Shown one piece after another: positions 46,608 through 53,220 of a stretch of DNA of 64,000 nucleotides. Each line of letters begins with the position of its first letter. Position 1 is the stretch's first letter. A program made the translations under genes and the position numbers. Below the pieces are notes generated by a model, which searched no databases, was not told the origin of the DNA, and saw only the letters and a list, made by a program, of their open reading frames with translations. Source of the DNA: a phage; sequence record PZ166176.1; one strand, written 5' to 3'.

Positions 46608-47024
46608 GTGTTACTAGATCAATTTACTCTCCTTGATCTAACTGAATACCAAGGTCGTAGACGAGTCTACAAAGAGGCCGTTGGTTCAGTTATTGCTAAC
46701 TTAGAAAGTAGTGTAGAATATGAACAATTTACTATTGAAGCGGCAAGCTTACAACCGATATCTGGTAAAACACTGAATGCACTACCTGAAGGTTACAGAT
46801 CTAAGGCTCAATATAGTTTCTGGACTAAAACAGAAATGAAGGGGTTACAACAAGGAACAGAACAGTTATCAGATCAGATATTGATAGATGGTAAATGGTA
46901 TTCTGTTTATTCCCTTAAAGATTGGACCAGAACATCTTTCTTAGTCCATCATCACTGTGTTGCGATATTAGACGATCAAAACAACTCCTGGTCTTATGGA
47001 ACAGAAGGAGGAAACTTTGGCTAA
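46608..47024 (+). CDS. putative tail completion / neck protein
   Basis: GTG start after AAAGGAG; track start 46575 lies inside the promoter. Confidence 0.4.
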   Translation: MLLDQFTLLDLTEYQGRRRVYKEAVGSVIANLESSVEYEQFTIEAASLQPISGKTLNALPEGYRSKAQYSFWTKTEMKGLQQGTEQLSDQILIDGKWYSVYSLKDWTRTSFLVHHHCVAILDDQNNSWSYGTEGGNFG

Positions 47025-47655
47025 TATTTACCAACAAATAGAAGCATACGAAAATGCCATCTACTTAAATATAGGTGGCTTCCTTCAAGAATTAGTGGGG
47101 TTGCCAGTCTATGTTATGGATAAGCCATTCATTAAACCGGATACTCCTTACCTAGCACTACGTATTATCACTTCCAGCGATTCTGGAGGTTGGTCTTACC
47201 GAAGCTCTATTCAAAATGATATGTATTCCTACGAGATGGATAATACCTACGAGATTGAACTTGTAGCCTATCGTGGAAGACCTACCACTTTGATGAGCTA
47301 TGTTCTGGCTGCTCTCCGTGGTGCAGAGGAATTAAAATACAAACATCTCTATTCTAAAGGTCTTGGTTTTTTAGGAGCCTCCAATATAGCTCAAGCCAAT
47401 ACAATTGTAGACGGAGATAAGACTGAATTAAGAGCGCGTATGGTTATGACGTTCAACACTCGTATGAGTATTGAAGATATTGCTACTACACCAATAGAAG
47501 CAATCAACATGCACATCCGTTCATTCAGAGATAGTTACAATGATCCTATCCCTTTAGATTTAATTCTAAACAGGATTTATGCAATTACTTTGGTTCCAGG
47601 CGAATACTCGTCAGTCAATCAAAATGGATCATTATTTAACAACCCTACCGAATAA
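46996..47655 (+). CDS. putative tail sheath stabiliser / tail terminator
   Basis: 219 aa immediately upstream of sheath gene. Confidence 0.35.
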   Translation: MEQKEETLANIYQQIEAYENAIYLNIGGFLQELVGLPVYVMDKPFIKPDTPYLALRIITSSDSGGWSYRSSIQNDMYSYEMDNTYEIELVAYRGRPTTLMSYVLAALRGAEELKYKHLYSKGLGFLGASNIAQANTIVDGDKTELRARMVMTFNTRMSIEDIATTPIEAINMHIRSFRDSYNDPIPLDLILNRIYAITLVPGEYSSVNQNGSLFNNPTE

Positions 47656-47689
47656 ACTCATTGGAATTAAGTTTCTAACAGGAGCATAA

Positions 47690-49063
47690 ATGGCAACTTT
47701 TCGTGAAAAGGTAGCAACCGTAACTTTACTGTATGGTGCTACATCAATTCGTGAAACCCAGTTCGATATTCCCCTGATCCTTACAGGTCAGAACGTAACT
47801 GGCGAAGCGATTCAATATTACTCTTCTTCCGATGCACTTTTGGAAGCAGGTTATGGATTAAATGATCCAGCGTATATTATGGCAGTCAAACTGTTTAACG
47901 GTTTGTTCCCACCAGATCAAGTTATGGTTGGTAAGCGTGAAGTTACAAACTTTACTCTAACTCCAATCGTAGAAGATAGTGCAACTTACACAATTACCAT
48001 CAAAAATGGTACCAAGAAAAAAGAATTTAAATTCATTGCTGATGACACTGCAACTGCACAAGAGATTGTAGTTGGTCTGACTGAAATGATCAATGCAGAT
48101 CTCGTTTATGGCCCACTGTTTACAGTAGCTAACAACGGCGCCGCAATGACTTTCACTCCAGTAGAAGGTAAGTTTGGTTCTATTGACAGCACAGGTTTCA
48201 CTCAAGAAACTGTCTATGCTAATGCTATTACGGAAGATATTGCTGCTCTGCATGATATTGATAGTAGCTGGTTCTGGACCCTTTCAGATTCCCATGAAAC
48301 AGAAGATGTTCTAGCTTTGGCTGCATGGGTAGAAGAGAATGATAAAGTTTACTTCTTCTCTAGCTCTGAACCTGGAATTAAAACGAAAGCAGAAGATAAC
48401 GTTCTGGAACGACTGAATGACCTCGGTTATAATAACACTTGCTTTGCTTTGTGGATGACCGATGCAGATTCTGTATTCCCAGAAGCAGCAGTTGTTGGTG
48501 CAATCTGTTCTCGTCAACCTGGTTTAACTACTCTTCACGGTAAAACACTGGTAGGCGTAGAGATCGAGAAACTGGATCAGACTTCGGAAAATAATATTGT
48601 TCAACAGAACGGTAACATCTATCGTAAAGAGCATGGAACTCTGTTCTATCGTGATGGATTGATGGTTAGCGGTTTCTTTGTTGATTATGTTGTTCATGCT
48701 TTGTGGTTTAAAGCTCGCACAGAAGAATCACTGTTTACACTGTTTAAACAACAGTCTATGCTGGGTGGCGGTGTTCGTGCTACTTCAAACGGTCTGGCTT
48801 TGATTCGACAAGCTGTTCTGGCTAACCCGATCCAAGTAGGTATCCTCAACGGTTCCATCGCTAATGAAGTTGTTACTTCTGAAGAGACTGGTTTGCGTGT
48901 CGATCTGAAACCTATTGTTTATATTCCTTCTCGTGCCGATATGACTGATGCGCAAATCAATGCTCGTCTGGTCGATGGGATGAAGATTGAATATGTTTAC
49001 GCTGGCTTCTTCCATTACGTTAAAGTTCAGGTCAACGTCCTGACTAACCGTACTGCAAACTAA
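47690..49063 (+). CDS. tail sheath protein
   Basis: 457 aa, immediately upstream of tube gene; sheath-tube-chaperone-tape-measure order. Confidence 0.6.
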   Translation: MATFREKVATVTLLYGATSIRETQFDIPLILTGQNVTGEAIQYYSSSDALLEAGYGLNDPAYIMAVKLFNGLFPPDQVMVGKREVTNFTLTPIVEDSATYTITIKNGTKKKEFKFIADDTATAQEIVVGLTEMINADLVYGPLFTVANNGAAMTFTPVEGKFGSIDSTGFTQETVYANAITEDIAALHDIDSSWFWTLSDSHETEDVLALAAWVEENDKVYFFSSSEPGIKTKAEDNVLERLNDLGYNNTCFALWMTDADSVFPEAAVVGAICSRQPGLTTLHGKTLVGVEIEKLDQTSENNIVQQNGNIYRKEHGTLFYRDGLMVSGFFVDYVVHALWFKARTEESLFTLFKQQSMLGGGVRATSNGLALIRQAVLANPIQVGILNGSIANEVVTSEETGLRVDLKPIVYIPSRADMTDAQINARLVDGMKIEYVYAGFFHYVKVQVNVLTNRTAN

Positions 49064-49068
49064 TACGG

Positions 49069-49095
49069 CGGGGGTTAAGCCCCCGTTATCAAAAT
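49069..49095 (+). terminator. terminator-like hairpin after sheath gene
   Basis: CGGGGG-ttaag-CCCCCG hairpin followed by TTATC; weak U tract. Confidence 0.4.
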
Positions 49096-49109
49096 AAAGA
49101 GGATCTATA

Positions 49110-49589
49110 ATGGATAAAATGCTTACTGGCGTAATGGCCTACGACCCATCTCAAGTTATCCTTTCATTAGGTGGTTGGGAACCGTGGGGTTTTGCGGCTG
49201 ATACTAAAATCGTTATTGCTAAATCTAACGATATTATCAACCCTTATTCAGGGACTGATGGCGACGTTTCTCTAGCTTTGAGTCGTAACCGTTTGGGAAC
49301 ACTCACAATGTCTTTGCAACGCACATCTCCAGCTAACGAAGTACTTGCAACATATGCACAAACAATGTATTCTACTCGTCAAGTAGCGTTCAGTGTTTAC
49401 TTGGAAGACCCACGTGGCTATTACATTAGCACGATTGGATGGATTCAAAGTCAGCCTGAAGATACTATTGGTGAAATGATTACAGAGAACCAATGGGTTA
49501 TTGGTCTTAAAGATGCAAGCCTTCTGCGTAATGAAGTTGGTGTAGGTTTGAGCACCCTTAACTCAATCTCTGCTCTGACAATTCAATAA
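49110..49589 (+). CDS. tail tube protein
   Basis: 159 aa between sheath and chaperone genes. Confidence 0.6.
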   Translation: MDKMLTGVMAYDPSQVILSLGGWEPWGFAADTKIVIAKSNDIINPYSGTDGDVSLALSRNRLGTLTMSLQRTSPANEVLATYAQTMYSTRQVAFSVYLEDPRGYYISTIGWIQSQPEDTIGEMITENQWVIGLKDASLLRNEVGVGLSTLNSISALTIQ

Positions 49590-49595
49590 TAAATA

Positions 49596-49618
49596 AAGGG
49601 CAGAAATGCCCTTTTTAT
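49596..49618 (+). terminator. rho-independent terminator after tube gene
   Basis: GGGCA-gaaa-TGCCC hairpin followed by TTTTT. Confidence 0.6.
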
Positions 49619-49634
49619 CATTAGAGAGGAAAAT

Positions 49635-50117
49635 ATGTCACAAGAACAAGATAACACAATTCAAAAATATGCTCGACCAGAAGAAGTAGTTGAGATTCCG
49701 TTAGATGGAAACAGATCTGTTACTTTCCGTATTATGAAGTGGAGTCCATCTAAAGTGTTTGACAGGATTCCAGAATTGGGTAGTGTTCTGGTTGTTCCTA
49801 TGACTATGTATAGCACAGCAACAATGTCCGCAGACGAAGACCTTGAGTCACGTATTGCTATGGCACTGATCCAACTTTTTTCAGGTTTGGAAGAAAAGAA
49901 TTTAACTGTCTTTTTGCGTAAAATTTTAGATGAGGTTTATACCCAAGACGGTTATAACGTTGCAGAAAATTTTGATGAATTATTTATGGCTCACCCAGAA
50001 CTAGTGTTAGATCTTACTGCTAAAGTTCTGGAGGTAAACTACGGCCCTTTTTTCAAACGAGGTTTCGGAAAACTGTTCACACAGCTTCAGGCGATGACGA
50101 GTTTAGCAGCAAATTAA
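49635..50117 (+). CDS. tail assembly chaperone (G-like, zero-frame product)
   Basis: 160 aa directly upstream of tape measure gene; contains slippery site. Confidence 0.6.
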   Translation: MSQEQDNTIQKYARPEEVVEIPLDGNRSVTFRIMKWSPSKVFDRIPELGSVLVVPMTMYSTATMSADEDLESRIAMALIQLFSGLEEKNLTVFLRKILDEVYTQDGYNVAENFDELFMAHPELVLDLTAKVLEVNYGPFFKRGFGKLFTQLQAMTSLAAN

Positions 50118-50383
50118 CACCTGCGATTGAACATGCTATCGACACAGCAACGAAAACCCTTACTTTGAAGTGGTATGAGGTTATTCTTTGCAAAGTCGTT
50201 AAAGATACCTCGGAAACACTGAAAACATTAGATAACTACGGTGTAGATTATCTTTTAAAACTATATGAGTATTTAACATACGAAGAGTATGTTGAAGCCA
50301 TGTATGTTAAAGACACTTCAATAAAGAGAAAACATCAAAACCAGACAAATAAAATGTCAGATTTGTTTAAGAAACTTGTTTAA
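49635..50383 (+). CDS. tail assembly chaperone -1 frameshift fusion product (GT-like)
   Basis: Slippery heptamer T_TTT_TTC at 50048..50054; -1 frame open from 50024 to 50383. Confidence 0.55.
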
Positions 50384-50403
50384 TCCAACACGAGGAACAT
50401 ACT

Positions 50404-52392
50404 TTGTTAGAAATTAACGCCTCCAAAATTAGTAACGTGGTTACGTTTAAGGTGGACAAGAACAGTCTCAAGGAAGCAAAAGATGCCGTGTTGAGTGTTC
50501 AGAAGTTTGCAAATAAAATGCAACCCACTATGAACATGACCAAGTTTAGACAACAAATGAAAGAGATTGAGCGTGAACTTAAGAAAGCTCAAACTCAAAG
50601 TCAAAAGCCTATGCGAGCACCTACTCCCGCTGGAGCGGGTGCTCCTGTAGGTGGTTCTGGTAGACCTAGAACTCCTAAAACGCCGCAAGGAAGAGAAGAA
50701 GAAAAAGCTCGTAAAGCTGCTGAACGCGAAGCTAAAGCAGCAGCACGTAGGGAAGACTTAGGTAATCTTCGTTTGCAGAACTTTAACTACCGAGCAAGAG
50801 CATTTAGTAAAGCAAGCCCTGGTGCTATGCAAGAAGCTAGAGACGTTATGGGTAAAGCCGTAGAGCAATACAAAAAGGGTGAAATAACTCTTCAACGTAT
50901 GAACCAAGCTCTTGCTCACCAGTTAGATGCTTTACGCAGATCTCATCGTGAAAAGAATGCTGAAATAGAAGACGAGGTTCGAGGTCGTCGCCGTATTCGT
51001 AGAGAGCTAGAAGCAGAAGCTAAAATGCGTATACGTATGCGAAATCGTGAACTTAGAGATATAGAACGCAACCGTAAGCGTGAATTAGCTCAACAGAAAC
51101 GTGATCGTGATCGTCGATATGGACAATTAAAAGAAGGTGCAGCAGGTCTTAATCCACGCATGATTGCATCCTCTTTGATTGGTGCTGGGCTGTTTGCAGG
51201 TGGTTCTGTAGTTGGTAACACGTTGATGAATACTAACGAAAGAATTAAACTTGTAAGCCGTGGTGCTGAAAACGTTCAGACAAACGCCAACGCTATTTTG
51301 GCAATGACAGCTTGGGGTGAACAGAACGGTGTAGACTCTGCAAATATTATTAAATCAATAGATAATATTAAAGACGTTCGTGAACGTCTTGGTAATACAG
51401 TTTTAGCTGCAAAGTGGAATGAGAAAGAAGGGAAGTGGAAAGGCGGTGATAATGGCATAACTGACATTATGAACTTGTTTGGATGGAATCCAGAACAGCT
51501 TAAACCTTTACAGAACGATCCTTTAGCTTTTATTCAGGCTACTGTTAATGAAGGTGAGCGTCGAGGTATGAACTCTGCTCAAATCGGGCGACTTCTTGAA
51601 AACCTTGGTGATGACCTTATGCACTACCAACGTATGTTTAGTAAAAACGGCGAAGGGTATAATGAAGTATTGAAGATGCTTCAAAGAACAGGTGCAACAT
51701 TAACTCAAGAACAAATAGATGCTTCTAAAGAGTTTACTCGTTTTGCTGCAACAGTTCAGCTTGTAGGTCAAGGTATGCAGAACCATTTCTTAGAAGGTTT
51801 TGTAAAAGCTTTACCTAAAGATGATTCTTGGTTGGATAACGTTAAAGTGCTAGATCAGTTCGCCAAAGATTTAGGTGAAGAACTCGGTAAGACAACAGTT
51901 CAATTAGGAGGTTTTGCTAAAGAATTGGGAGATGGTTTCGGATCTTTTACCAATTGGCTTAAAGAAACATTCCCAGATACATTCGGAGACAACACAGATC
52001 CTAATAAATCTATAGCACAAAAAGCATACGAGGCAACGCAAAGTGGAGACAGCAATCCTGTAGCAGATTGGTTGTACAATTTAACAGGTATTGATACACA
52101 AGATATTGGTCGTATGTGGAGAGGAGAACAAACAAGAACACGTGCTTTTGGATTTGGTAATCCTCTTGAAGATTTACGTGAATCAGCCTATACACCTAAC
52201 GTAAGTTTGGCTCGTAATCAACCTGTTGTTGAGAATACGGTAGCAATACCAAGTGATCTTATCAAAGTTACGATCAGCCCTTCTTCAGAGTTTGGAAATA
52301 TTCTTGATGCAAGAATTCAAAATAGCGGAAATAGCATTTTCCAACGTTTGTCTCTTTCAACTCTAAGTGGACAATCTAACACTGGTGGTTAA
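50404..52392 (+). CDS. tail tape measure protein
   Basis: 662 aa, coiled-coil Arg/Glu-rich centre, directly after the frameshifted chaperone pair; start codon uncertain (track uses TTG). Confidence 0.65.
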   Translation: MLEINASKISNVVTFKVDKNSLKEAKDAVLSVQKFANKMQPTMNMTKFRQQMKEIERELKKAQTQSQKPMRAPTPAGAGAPVGGSGRPRTPKTPQGREEEKARKAAEREAKAAARREDLGNLRLQNFNYRARAFSKASPGAMQEARDVMGKAVEQYKKGEITLQRMNQALAHQLDALRRSHREKNAEIEDEVRGRRRIRRELEAEAKMRIRMRNRELRDIERNRKRELAQQKRDRDRRYGQLKEGAAGLNPRMIASSLIGAGLFAGGSVVGNTLMNTNERIKLVSRGAENVQTNANAILAMTAWGEQNGVDSANIIKSIDNIKDVRERLGNTVLAAKWNEKEGKWKGGDNGITDIMNLFGWNPEQLKPLQNDPLAFIQATVNEGERRGMNSAQIGRLLENLGDDLMHYQRMFSKNGEGYNEVLKMLQRTGATLTQEQIDASKEFTRFAATVQLVGQGMQNHFLEGFVKALPKDDSWLDNVKVLDQFAKDLGEELGKTTVQLGGFAKELGDGFGSFTNWLKETFPDTFGDNTDPNKSIAQKAYEATQSGDSNPVADWLYNLTGIDTQDIGRMWRGEQTRTRAFGFGNPLEDLRESAYTPNVSLARNQPVVENTVAIPSDLIKVTISPSSEFGNILDARIQNSGNSIFQRLSLSTLSGQSNTGG

Positions 52393-52399
52393 TAAAATA

Positions 52400-52426
52400 C
52401 CTCGCTTCGGCGGGGTTTTTTCGTTT
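52400..52426 (+). terminator. rho-independent terminator after tape measure gene
   Basis: CCTCGC-ttcg-GCGGGG hairpin followed by TTTTTT. Confidence 0.6.
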
Positions 52427-52429
52427 CCC

Positions 52430-52459
52430 TTGACACGAAGTTTCTATATGTGTTACAAT
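52430..52459 (+). promoter_or_regulatory. sigma70-like promoter (TTGACA-18-TACAAT)
   Basis: cccTTGACAcgaagtttctatatgtgtTACAAT. Confidence 0.5.
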
Positions 52460-52518
52460 AATCAATATGGGAAGATCTTGCATCTTCCTTTTGGCATTAT
52501 CATTACTACGAGGTTATC

Positions 52519-53220
52519 ATGGCAGCAATGACTCCACAACAGTCGGTGAGAGCCGTCTATAAGGCAGAACAGGAAATCAACTCTACCGAGAATAAAAATA
52601 CCTCGGCATCTACTGTAAAAGGTGATAATGGTTTCTGCATTTTAGCAAGTGTTTATAATAGTTCAAGTGATCAATACATTCAAAACTTTAAAGCAATTAC
52701 TTTCGATTCAGTCCCTGAAATAGGTGTAACTCGTGAGGCAGATGTTACAAGTTTTCCAGTAGAATCAGGATCAGATGTAAGTGACCACGTTCAAATAAAA
52801 AACAACAGATTTAAACTTTCAGGTATAATTACCGAAACACCAATTCGGCTTATGCGAGATCAATTATACAGTGCAGGTGTAAATGGAGCAAGGATTTCTC
52901 AAGCAATAGAATACCTAGATCAAATATTTGAGTCAAGACAACCAATAGTTCTTTTGACAGAACATAGAACTTTTGAAAATGTTATTCTCAAAGGTTATTC
53001 CTATGATTATAAATCTGAATTTGCTATGCAATTTGATTTAGAGTTTGAACAAATCCGTCTTGTTTCTAAGGCCACTACTAACGCTATTGCTGTAAAAACA
53101 GCACCAAATAAGTCAACTGGTGGTGATGTGAAAGGTCAAGTTGCTTCGAATGGTCCTAAGTCAGATATTACAGTAAGAACTGCTGAAGCTACTAATACCC
53201 CAACAAACAACGGAGGTTAA
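52519..53220 (+). CDS. baseplate / tail assembly protein
   Basis: 233 aa, first gene after tape measure. Confidence 0.35.
   Translation: MAAMTPQQSVRAVYKAEQEINSTENKNTSASTVKGDNGFCILASVYNSSSDQYIQNFKAITFDSVPEIGVTREADVTSFPVESGSDVSDHVQIKNNRFKLSGIITETPIRLMRDQLYSAGVNGARISQAIEYLDQIFESRQPIVLLTEHRTFENVILKGYSYDYKSEFAMQFDLEFEQIRLVSKATTNAIAVKTAPNKSTGGDVKGQVASNGPKSDITVRTAEATNTPTNNGG

What the first reader, a model, noticed from the sequence alone, without database searches (positions are those of the whole stretch)
50024..50383. Programmed -1 ribosomal frameshift in the tail assembly chaperone gene
The 3' part of the chaperone gene (49635..50117) contains the slippery heptamer T_TTT_TTC (50048..50054), and the -1 frame is open from 50024 through 50383, ending just before the tape measure gene. 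This is the conserved G/GT-type arrangement of tailed phages; the fusion would be about 249 aa.
Basis: partly seen in the sequence, partly recalled or inferred. Interest (0 to 1): 0.4.

Follow-up and report, generated by a model that had tools for sequence, protein, structure and literature searches.

The report
Unannotated tail-chaperone −1 ribosomal frameshift
This phAPEC8-like E. coli phage almost certainly makes a short and a long version of its tail assembly chaperone by letting a few ribosomes slip back one base at T_TTT_TTC; this is the classic lambda G/GT or P2 E/E+E' trick, real and strongly conserved here, but missing from the public annotations checked.

Summary
The 160-aa chaperone gene (49635-50117) lies between the tail tube and tape measure genes. 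It carries an in-phase T_TTT_TTC at 50048-50054. The -1 frame is open from 50024 to 50383 and stops 20 nt before the tape measure start, so the fusion would be 249 aa (28.8 kDa).

In all 60 related loci examined (down to about 30% identity), the -1 frame stays open for 108-149 codons across the chaperone stop. T_TTT_TTC is invariant in 58 of the 60 loci. Its three synonymous codon choices never vary, although the neighbouring codons do.

The two exceptions carry other canonical heptamers: A_AAT_TTT in a Vibrio phage and G_GGA_AAG, shifted 4 codons, in a Rheinheimera phage. That argues for ribosomal slippage rather than transcriptional slippage.

The -1 frame evolves as coding sequence (dN/dS about 0.1) upstream of its only start codon. 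Half of the distinct relatives have no start codon there at all.

No downstream RNA structure was found, as in lambda and P2. A GGAGG lies 13 nt upstream and is a possible stimulator, but it is not universal.

Public records leave a gap or call a separate 72-aa ORF. This is a new member of a well-known kind and of modest interest. No expression data were available.

The parts
49635..50117 (+). Tail assembly chaperone gene, short product (G-like or TAC-N; 160 aa, 18.2 kDa)
50030..50035 (+). Shine-Dalgarno-like GGAGGT, 12-13 nt 5' of the heptamer; a possible dnaX-type stimulator (inferred only)
   Evidence: Sequence. GGAGG, GAGG or GGAG sits at the same 13-14 nt spacing in about 26 of 36 distinct relatives, but is absent (GAAG) in the Certrevirus and Mydovirus clades. 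It also encodes the conserved Leu-Glu-Val.
50048..50054 (+). Slippery heptamer T_TTT_TTC in X_XXY_YYZ phase (codons CCT TTT TTC)
   Evidence: It is invariant in 35 of 36 distinct contexts, and its synonymous positions never vary: TGT 23/23, CCT 12/12, TTT 35/35, TTC 35/35. It is also present in Aeromonas phage phiA019.
50054..50113 (+). -1 frame segment that overlaps the 3' end of the chaperone gene. It encodes the conserved xxRFR motif and then a variable Gly/Ser/Asp-rich linker.
   Evidence: Translation. Alignment of 36 extensions. Linker length varies from about 13 to about 35 residues between clades.
50114..50383 (+). Conserved C-terminal (T-like or TAC-C) domain in the -1 frame, including the TAA stop at 50381-50383
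   Evidence: Alignments. PHROG 16039 and 10409, function unknown. dN/dS is about 0.1 both before and after the TTG at 50165. tblastn finds it in 136 phage records.
49635..50383 (+). Span of the predicted trans-frame product (249 aa, 28.8 kDa). It reads 49635-50054 in frame 0, re-reads base 50054, then reads 50054-50380 in frame -1. The junction tryptic peptide is VLEVNYGPFFQTR.
   Evidence: sequence, mass, peptide.
50404..52392 (+). Tape measure protein gene, the expected client of the chaperone. It starts 20 nt after the -1 ORF stop.
   Evidence: PHROG 16051, full-length match. RefSeq annotation.

Best explanation
The site is a programmed -1 ribosomal frameshift in the tail assembly chaperone gene of a Phapecoctavirus, a phAPEC8-like contractile-tailed E. 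coli phage.

Most ribosomes translate 49635-50117 and release the 160-aa chaperone. A minority slip while Phe-tRNAs occupy TTT (P site) and TTC (A site) of T_TTT_TTC. Both tRNAs re-pair one base back on TTT TTT. Translation then continues in the -1 frame from CAA (50054) to TAA (50383).

The result is a 249-aa protein with the same 140 N-terminal residues, a short flexible linker and a conserved helix-rich domain of about 90 aa.

By analogy with lambda G/GT and P2 E/E+E' (inferred, not shown here), the shared N-domain coats the tape measure protein encoded immediately downstream. The extra domain of the rare long form recruits the tail tube protein. The fixed slip frequency then sets the short-to-long ratio needed for tail assembly, and neither protein stays in the virion.

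The signal appears to be essentially the heptamer alone. There is no downstream structure, and the upstream GGAGG may contribute.
For: **Shown by sequence and comparison**
- The anatomy is exactly as described.
- The window is 99% identical to Phapecoctavirus genomes.
- The ORF is a tail assembly chaperone by Pfam and PHROG and by fold. It lies between the sheath and tube genes and the tape measure gene.
- In all 60 loci examined, the -1 frame is open for 108-149 codons across the chaperone stop (one of them runs off its contig end at 108). These loci cover Stephanstirmvirinae, Vequintavirinae, Plateaulakevirus, Barbavirus and a Vibrio phage, with chaperone identity down to about 30%. The +1 frame is never open in this way.
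- T_TTT_TTC is invariant and in phase in 58 of the 60 loci. All three synonymous third positions are fixed, while 18 of the 19 upstream codons use two or more synonymous codons.
- The two exceptions have other canonical heptamers in phase. Vibrio phage S4-7 has A_AAT_TTT at the same codons. Rheinheimera phage Barba18A has lost the T run but has the lambda-type G_GGA_AAG 4 codons downstream.
- Between the chaperone stop and the first -1-frame start codon (TTG 50165), substitutions fall mainly on third positions (for example 2, 2, 11). dN/dS is about 0.1.
- 18 of 36 distinct relatives have no ATG, GTG or TTG in the -1 frame before the conserved Trp of the domain. The window's TTG has no Shine-Dalgarno sequence.
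- No other in-phase heptamer in the window is followed by more than 39 open -1 codons.

**From the literature**
- U_UU.C is the second most shift-prone A-site motif in E. coli, and homogeneous pyrimidine heptamers are favoured (PMC4066793).
- P2 uses TTTTTTG without a hairpin (PMC3091744).
- The G/GT mechanism and its 30:1 ratio are described in PMC5009743.
- The same arrangement, with an invariant GTTTTT, has been proposed for the related Vandenendeviridae and Andersonviridae (PMC12846349).
Against: - There is no direct evidence of the 249-aa product, its abundance or its requirement. Everything about function rests on homology and analogy.
- No stimulatory RNA structure was found, either in the window (z -1.45 and +0.72) or as a consensus in either clade. 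Efficiency is therefore probably low and cannot be estimated.
- The upstream SD-like element is not universal, and it overlaps conserved Leu-Glu-Val codons.
- The relatives are phylogenetically related, so the 58 invariant heptamers are not 58 independent events.
- One of the two peptide patterns used to collect the IMG/VR loci contained the FF residues. This gives an amino-acid ascertainment bias but not a codon bias.
- The C-terminal domain has no detectable similarity to any characterised T domain.
Confidence: 0.88

Rival explanations
1. Transcriptional slippage. RNA polymerase adds one extra U in the T6 run, and normal translation of those transcripts then gives the same 249-aa fusion.
For: - The site is a homopolymer (T6), and an insertion of one U would place the downstream -1 frame in register.
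- A T run is what is conserved across most relatives.
[quoted passage not shown] That paper could not be read.
- Metagenomic protein P0045 looks like the product of a T5 variant, which shows that run length is labile at some level.
Against: - Six T is shorter than the runs of about 8-9 or more that I know to give efficient slippage by bacterial RNA polymerase (own knowledge).
- The run is never longer than 6 in any of the 58 loci that have it, although TTT for TTC would be synonymous in frame 0.
- The two relatives that lack the run have A_AAT_TTT and G_GGA_AAG. These are classic ribosomal heptamers that cannot support polymerase slippage, and they keep the same two-ORF arrangement.
Confidence: 0.05
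2. There are two separate genes. The downstream ORF is an independent small protein (72 aa from TTG 50165), as several GenBank records annotate it, and no frameshift occurs.
For: - Some records call a separate 'hypothetical protein' here.
- PHROG 16039 is built from such 72-aa calls.
- Gene callers in metagenomes produce ORFs of 55-107 aa.
Against: - No Shine-Dalgarno sequence precedes the TTG, and the TTG is simply a Leu codon inside a conserved helix.
- 15 conserved codons upstream of it evolve under purifying selection in that frame.
- 18 of 36 distinct relatives have no start codon at all before the conserved Trp, and where starts exist their positions differ.
- PHROG 10409 already aligns from 10 residues upstream of the TTG.
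- This reading does not explain the invariant in-phase heptamer or why the ORF always overlaps the chaperone gene in the -1 frame.
Confidence: 0.04
3. The shift is ribosomal but occurs at a different place in the 94-nt overlap. One candidate is the abutting C_CCT_TTT (50045-50051). Another is a single-tRNA slip on A_AAA (GGA AAA, 50070-50075).
For: - C_CCT_TTT is in phase in the window and in all Stephanstirmvirinae-like relatives.
- A shift anywhere between 50024 and 50117 would give a long product.
- A_AA.A is weakly shift-prone in E. coli.
Against: - Vequintavirinae have TGT instead of CCT, so C_CCT_TTT is not conserved, whereas T_TTT_TTC is.
- GGA AAA is absent from Vequintavirinae.
- The peptide difference would be nil for the C_CCT_TTT site (P-F-F either way). 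This is therefore a refinement of the best explanation rather than a different biology.
Confidence: 0.05
4. The open -1 frame and the heptamer are chance features with no function, or the result of an assembly error in this genome.
For: The heptamer is short, and TTTTTTC occurs 17 times in the window.
Against: - The arrangement is reproduced in all 60 loci from independent isolates and metagenomes.
- The -1 ORF is under purifying selection.
- A run of 109 open codons is far outside the window's distribution, where the next-longest is 39.
- The zero-frame stop and the C-terminal tail are conserved too.
Confidence: 0.01

Closest known systems
Bacteriophage P2 E / E+E' (contractile-tailed phage; -1 frameshift at TTTTTTG)
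   Same: - The phage is a myovirus.
- The chaperone gene lies between the tube and tape measure genes.
- The heptamer is an almost identical U-rich one (T_TTT_TTG versus T_TTT_TTC).
[quoted passage not shown]
- There is no downstream hairpin (PMC3091744).
   Different: - There was no detectable sequence similarity. The window protein belongs to Pfam Phage_TAC_15 and gave no hit to a P2 family.
- The products are larger (160 and 249 aa against 91 and 142 aa).
- The last base is C rather than G.
- P2 frameshifting has been demonstrated experimentally; here it has not.
Bacteriophage lambda G / GT (-1 frameshift at G_GGA_AAG, ratio about 30:1)
   Same: - One start codon yields two products that share an N-terminus.
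- The extension is encoded in the -1 frame and ends just before the tape measure gene.
- No stimulatory structure is needed (PMC5009743).
- One relative of the window's chaperone (Rheinheimera phage Barba18A) uses the lambda heptamer G_GGA_AAG itself.
   Different: - Lambda is a siphovirus with a different heptamer and different slipping tRNAs (Gly/Lys against Phe/Phe).
- The chaperone belongs to a different sequence family.
- The functions of the lambda domains (G binds gpH, T binds gpV) are experimentally known. Here they are only inferred.
TAC-N / TAC-NC locus of Vandenendeviridae (Pakpunavirus, phage Adele) and Andersonviridae, with an invariant GTTTTT motif (PMC12846349, 2025)
   Same: - These clades are evolutionarily related, and the paper groups them with Vequintavirinae and Stephanstirmvirinae.
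- The public mis-annotation is the same: a 'hypothetical protein' between the chaperone and the tape measure gene.
- Both have a poly-T slip motif near the 3' end of TAC-N.
- The kind of evidence is the same: an uninterrupted -1 frame across many alleles.
- The window's tube protein hits Pfam KPP10_Orf10, a Pakpunavirus family, just below its cutoff (24.4 against 25 bits).
   Different: - In the passages retrieved, that paper analysed Vandenendeviridae and Andersonviridae, not the phAPEC8-like or rV5-like groups.
- The Stephanstirmvirinae motif is CC-TTTTTT-C, without the G.
- I did not test whether the sites are orthologous.
E. coli dnaX (-1 frameshift at A_AAA_AAG with an upstream SD-like element and a downstream hairpin)
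   Same: - It is a -1 shift on a homogeneous heptamer in E. coli.
- An SD-like GGAGG lies 13 nt upstream of the heptamer. As I recall it, that is within the spacing that stimulates -1 shifting in dnaX (own knowledge).
   Different: - There is no downstream hairpin.
- The SD-like element is not conserved in all relatives and coincides with conserved codons.
- The efficiency is expected to be far lower than in dnaX.

Membership tests
Phage tail assembly chaperone with programmed -1 frameshift (lambda G/GT, P2 E/E+E' type) | The gene pair lies between the major tail or tube gene and the tape measure gene. | tested here: met
   Gene order is sheath 47690-49063, tube 49110-49589, chaperone 49635-50117, -1 ORF to 50383, tape measure 50404-52392.
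Phage tail assembly chaperone with programmed -1 frameshift (lambda G/GT, P2 E/E+E' type) | The upstream ORF is a tail assembly chaperone homologue. | tested here: met
   [not shown]
Phage tail assembly chaperone with programmed -1 frameshift (lambda G/GT, P2 E/E+E' type) | The second ORF overlaps the 3' end of the first in the -1 frame and lacks its own initiation signals. | tested here: met
   The overlap is 94 nt. The only start codon before the conserved domain core is TTG 50165, which has no SD. 18 of 36 distinct relatives have no start codon.
Phage tail assembly chaperone with programmed -1 frameshift (lambda G/GT, P2 E/E+E' type) | A slippery heptamer X_XXY_YYZ lies in phase within the overlap. 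| tested here: met
   T_TTT_TTC at 50048-50054, codons CCT TTT TTC.
Phage tail assembly chaperone with programmed -1 frameshift (lambda G/GT, P2 E/E+E' type) | The arrangement and the slip site are conserved in diverged relatives, and the extension is under purifying selection. | tested here: met
   All 60 loci have the open -1 frame. 58 have T_TTT_TTC and 2 have other canonical heptamers. Synonymous positions are fixed. dN/dS is about 0.1.
Phage tail assembly chaperone with programmed -1 frameshift (lambda G/GT, P2 E/E+E' type) | Two proteins with a common N-terminus are produced at a fixed ratio. | not testable with these tools
   This needs a Western blot, mass spectrometry or a reporter assay. 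No proteomic report was found for this clade.
Phage tail assembly chaperone with programmed -1 frameshift (lambda G/GT, P2 E/E+E' type) | Both products are required for tail assembly, bind the tape measure and tube proteins, and are absent from virions. | not testable with these tools
   This is inferred by analogy only (PMC5009743).
-1 PRF signals with a 3' stimulatory hairpin or pseudoknot (IS3/IS911, dnaX, viral type) | A stable RNA structure lies 5-9 nt downstream of the heptamer. | tested here: not met
   The window fold is not better than shuffles (z -1.45 and +0.72). RNAalifold finds no consensus helix near the site in 11 Stephanstirmvirinae-like or 17 Vequintavirinae sequences.
dnaX-type upstream stimulator | An SD-like sequence lies about 10-14 nt 5' of the heptamer and is conserved. 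| tested here: inconclusive
   GGAGG lies 13 nt upstream in the window. A core of at least 4 nt is present in about 26 of 36 distinct relatives and absent in the Certrevirus and Mydovirus clades. It is confounded with conserved Leu-Glu-Val codons.
Transcriptional (RNA polymerase) slippage sites | A long homopolymer (about 8-9 nt or more), independent of reading phase. | tested here: not met
   The run is exactly 6 T in all 58 loci that have it. Two relatives have the non-homopolymeric heptamers A_AAT_TTT and G_GGA_AAG instead.

The most novel reading that the evidence does not exclude
The T_TTT_TTC site may be a single ancient, orthologous recoding signal. It would be held at the nucleotide level across a whole order-level assemblage of large lytic myoviruses: phAPEC8-like, rV5-like, Plateaulakevirus, and, through the published GTTTTT motif, Felix O1-like and PAK_P1-like phages. 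It would work without any 3' structure, and the upstream GGAGG would act as a dnaX-like tuner in some lineages. Rare lineages would have swapped in a different heptamer a few codons away (G_GGA_AAG in Barbavirus), which would be a natural experiment on slip-site turnover.
Probability: 0.4. Interest if true: 0.35.

Novelty: new member of a known kind. Interest (0 to 1): 0.25.

Why it matters
The main consequence is for annotation.

- **What is missing:** none of the roughly 20 annotated records I opened, RefSeq entries included, joins the two ORFs. They show either a 286-nt 'gap' or a spurious small hypothetical gene at this place. tblastn finds the T-like domain in 136 phage records. A search of 5.8 billion predicted proteins with the fusion found no protein that covers both parts.
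- **Who it affects:** the phAPEC8-like and rV5-like phages are widely used therapy and biocontrol candidates. Recognising the 249-aa product adds an essential morphogenetic protein to their gene lists.
- **What it offers for study:** the family is a clean comparative case. It has an invariant U_UUU_UUC with fixed synonymous sites, no 3' structure, and two natural heptamer replacements. That makes it useful for studying how a low-efficiency, structure-independent -1 frameshift is maintained.

It does not change the understanding of the mechanism.

Tried and rejected
- **Downstream stimulatory structure.** I folded 50048-50170 and 50055-50120 and ran RNAalifold on two clades. Nothing was significant. 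The only consensus helix is 5 bp and lies about 90 nt downstream, too far away to matter.
- **Known-domain identity of the C-terminal extension.** Pfam gave only sub-threshold noise. The PDB sequence profile gave only de novo TIM barrels, at E about 0.07. PHROG families 16039, 10409 and 8811 have no assigned function.
- **Rosetta-stone in-frame fusions or already annotated fusion proteins.** None was found among 5.8 billion proteins; all 43 hits are about 160 aa. None was found among 1.84 billion representatives; the hits are 55-107 aa. The one long hit, P0047 (3956 aa), is an acidic tandem-repeat protein, and I rejected it as a compositional match.
- **Literature on this frameshift in phAPEC8-like or rV5-like phages.** I found no paper that states it. 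The search for '5IR0' returned only chemistry papers. The T4-like chaperone paper (PMID 34826709) is not held.
- **Structure of the fusion or the T domain.** I did not predict either.
- **The second TTTTTTC inside the chaperone gene (49876-49882).** It is out of phase, and I dismissed it.

Full report
**Identity of the window and the locus**

Bases 47600-52500 are 99% identical over their full length to Escherichia phages SKA64, tuntematon, phAPEC8 and dozens of other members of the genus Phapecoctavirus. This genus belongs to the Stephanstirmvirinae, myoviruses of about 150 kb.

The local gene order on the + strand is as follows:
- neck/tail terminator, 46996-47655 (Pfam Phage_tail_terminator_9)
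- tail sheath, 47690-49063 (DUF3383; PHROG 205)
- tube, 49110-49589
- the 160-aa ORF, 49635-50117
- tape measure protein, 50404-52392 (PHROG 16051, full length)
- a Dit-like protein, 52519-53220

**Check of the observation**

- The zero-frame codons are ...AAC TAC GGC CCT TTT TTC AAA CGA... TTTTTTC at 50048-50054 is therefore in X_XXY_YYZ phase.
- The -1 frame has a stop at 50021-50023, is open from 50024, and ends at TAA 50381-50383.
- That stop lies 20 nt before the TTG start of the tape measure gene, which has a GAGGA at a 7-nt spacing.
- A tandem slip gives 140 + 109 = 249 aa (28.8 kDa against 18.2 kDa for the short form), with the junction ...NYGPFFQTRFRK....

The arrangement is not a chance feature of the window. 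There are 57 in-phase slippery heptamers in ORFs of at least 100 aa. After them the -1 frame continues for a median of 6 codons, and the runner-up reaches 39. This site reaches 109 codons and passes the zero-frame stop by 266 nt. TTTTTTC itself is depleted in the window, with 17 copies against 34.8 +/- 5.6 expected.

**Comparative evidence**

I collected 60 loci that encode a relative of the chaperone:
- the window itself
- 13 GenBank phages spanning Stephanstirmvirinae, six genera of Vequintavirinae and Vibrio phage S4-7
- 44 IMG/VR contigs
- Aeromonas phage phiA019 and Rheinheimera phage Barba18A

Chaperone identity to the window falls to about 30%.

In every locus the -1 frame is open for 108-149 codons across the chaperone stop, and in one of them it runs off the end of its contig at 108 codons. 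The +1 frame never behaves like this. In most annotated relatives the -1 ORF ends 9-80 nt before the tape measure gene. The exceptions are Certrevirus, which has extra ORFs or a gap of about 230 nt in between, and Barba18A, which has an inserted HNH endonuclease gene.

T_TTT_TTC is present in phase at the homologous N-Y-G-[P/C]-F-F position in 58 of the 60 loci. These give 35 of the 36 distinct 187-nt contexts, plus phiA019.

The three synonymous positions inside the heptamer never vary: TGT 23/23, CCT 12/12, TTT 35/35, TTC 35/35. In contrast, 18 of the 19 codons upstream use two or more synonymous codons.

The two loci without the T run are the most telling:
- Vibrio phage S4-7 has A_AAT_TTT at the same codons.
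- Barba18A reads TGT CTA ACT TCG GGA AAG, with the lambda-type heptamer G_GGA_AAG in phase four codons downstream. It keeps a 126-codon -1 ORF.

Replacing one canonical ribosomal slip site by another, while the two-ORF architecture is kept, is what selection for -1 ribosomal frameshifting predicts. Selection for a homopolymer would not predict it.

**The -1 ORF is translated, and from upstream**

The aligned extensions share three parts:
- an xxRFR motif immediately after the slip
- a Gly/Ser/Asp-rich linker of variable length
- a conserved domain of about 65-90 aa (...A[IL]..A.....SL.W[YF]..L..[KR].......E...SL...D..YL....EY[LI]...), followed by a basic tail

In the window the conserved domain begins at about 50114. 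That is 17 codons before TTG 50165, the only start codon in this frame. Those codons lie after the chaperone stop and so code in one frame only. Over them, substitutions fall mainly on third positions (window against phiWec181: 2, 2, 11), and dN/dS is about 0.1, the same as in the rest of the domain.

The TTG has no Shine-Dalgarno sequence and is a Leu codon within the conserved ...SL.W motif. 18 of the 36 distinct relatives have no ATG, GTG or TTG at all between the slip site and the conserved Trp. Independent initiation therefore cannot explain the conserved coding sequence.

In the overlap itself no single frame dominates. That is expected if the short form's C-terminal tail and the long form's linker are both read.

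**Signals**

- **Downstream structure.** There is none. The window folds are no better than shuffles (z -1.45 and +0.72). RNAalifold finds nothing near the site in either clade. This matches lambda and P2, where the heptamer suffices (PMC5009743; PMC3091744).
- **The heptamer.** It fits the E. coli rules. UUN A-site codons are shift-prone, U_UU.C ranks second among tetramers, and homogeneous pyrimidine heptamers are favoured (PMC4066793).
- **Upstream GGAGG (50030-50034).** It lies 13 nt upstream of the heptamer. As I recall it, this is the spacing at which an SD-like element stimulates -1 shifting in dnaX (own knowledge). A core of 4 nt or more is present in about 26 of 36 distinct relatives but absent in Certrevirus and Mydovirus, and it coincides with conserved Leu-Glu-Val codons. 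I treat it as a possible modulator, not shown.
- **GGTTTCG, 6-9 nt downstream.** This nearly invariant motif is adequately explained by dual coding: G-F in frame 0 and R-F-R in frame -1. In rV5 it changes to GGTTTAGG, which keeps R-F-R but not G-F.

**Mechanism and function**

Shown here:
- the anatomy
- conservation of the arrangement and the heptamer
- purifying selection on the -1 ORF
- the absence of initiation signals for it

Inferred:
- A minority of ribosomes slip -1 on T_TTT_TTC and make a 249-aa long form.
- By analogy with lambda G/GT and P2 E/E+E', the shared N-domain coats the tape measure protein and the extra domain recruits the tube protein.
- The slip frequency fixes the ratio between the two forms.
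- Neither protein remains in the virion (PMC5009743).

My confidence in the frameshift reading is about 0.88.

**Rivals**

- **Transcriptional slippage at T6 (about 0.05).** This is disfavoured. The run is short and never lengthens, and the two non-homopolymeric replacements argue against it.
- **A separate 72-aa gene (about 0.04).** This is contradicted by the coding signal upstream of the TTG and by the relatives that lack any start codon.
- **A shift at the abutting C_CCT_TTT or elsewhere in the overlap.** This would be a refinement rather than a different biology.
- **Chance or assembly error.** This is excluded by the 60 loci.

**Comparison with what is known, and novelty**

The kind is textbook: the conserved frameshift of tailed-phage tail assembly genes. 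The closest analogue is P2 E/E+E', also a myovirus, which uses TTTTTTG and has no hairpin.

A 2025 paper made the same argument for the related Vandenendeviridae and Andersonviridae, with an invariant GTTTTT near the end of TAC-N. It notes their relatedness to Vequintavirinae and Stephanstirmvirinae (PMC12846349).

I found no paper that states it for the phAPEC8-like or rV5-like groups. The roughly 20 annotated records I opened show either a gap or a separate small ORF and never a joined feature; these include RefSeq entries for tuntematon, alia, SSE121, Hena1, KpS8 and CR9. A search of 5.8 billion proteins with the fusion found only entries of about 160 aa. A search of 1.84 billion representatives with the extension found only ORF calls of 55-107 aa.

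This is therefore a new, unannotated member of a known kind. It is well supported but unsurprising, and I score interest at 0.25.

**Limits**

- There are no expression data of any sort.
- The relatives are not independent samples.
- One of the two peptide patterns used to fish the IMG/VR loci contained the FF residues. This biases the amino acids but not the codon choice.
- The C-terminal domain has no similarity to a characterised T domain, so its binding partner is an inference.

Noticed in passing
window 49595-49614, 52399-52416 and 52430-52459: Terminator-like hairpins bracket the chaperone and tape measure unit. One follows the tube gene (AAAGGGCAgaaaTGCCCTTT + T-rich tail). One follows the tape measure gene, and it is itself followed by a strong sigma-70-like promoter (TTGACA-18-TACAAT, 11/12, with TG) ahead of the Dit-like gene. 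This suggests that chaperone and tape measure expression is attenuated relative to the tube.
   Followed up: no
whole window: TTTTTTC is under-represented: 17 copies against 34.8 +/- 5.6 in dinucleotide shuffles, and all 100 shuffles had at least 17. This is consistent with avoidance of slippery runs outside the programmed site.
   Followed up: no
window 50061-50068 (GGTTTCGG) and the homologous positions in L004-L060: A nearly invariant GGTTTCG lies 6-9 nt 3' of the heptamer in both subfamilies. It encodes G-F in frame 0 and R-F-R in frame -1. rV5 changes it to GGTTTAGG, which keeps only R-F-R. So the conserved element is probably the peptide motif at the start of the long form's extension and not an RNA signal. 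Its role is unknown.
   Followed up: partly
L062 (Rheinheimera phage Barba18A) 1530-1536 and 1832-2470: The slip site has been replaced: the T run is lost and an in-phase G_GGA_AAG lies 4 codons downstream. An HNH endonuclease gene is inserted on the opposite strand between the -1 ORF and the tape measure gene.
   Followed up: partly
[not shown]
   Followed up: no
GenBank records MG0656xx ('Campylobacter phage' A145, C7, B15, C11 and others) and OP562383 ('Acinetobacter phage ABPW7'): These records are 99-100% identical at this locus to E. coli Phapecoctavirus, Justusliebigvirus or rV5-like phages. The host labels look doubtful, from contamination or mislabelling.
   Followed up: no
metagenomic protein P0045: Its N-terminus, 'MALFQTRFRK...', is what a T5 run instead of a T6 run at the slip site would encode. 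It points to a homopolymer-length variant or a sequencing error exactly at the slippery run in one contig.
   Followed up: no
L012 (Pectobacterium phage CB7) 2300-3370; L015 (Cronobacter phage CR9) 2192-2419: In Certrevirus the -1 ORF does not abut the annotated tape measure gene. CB7 has two extra annotated ORFs (39 and 316 aa) in between, and CR9 has a gap of about 230 nt. The tape measure start may be mis-annotated, or the gene may be split.
   Followed up: no
PV659873.1 (Escherichia phage WPEC1): The T-domain query matches six places in this 161-kb record, and the best match is split into two pieces. This may reflect a mis-assembly or a duplication.
   Followed up: no
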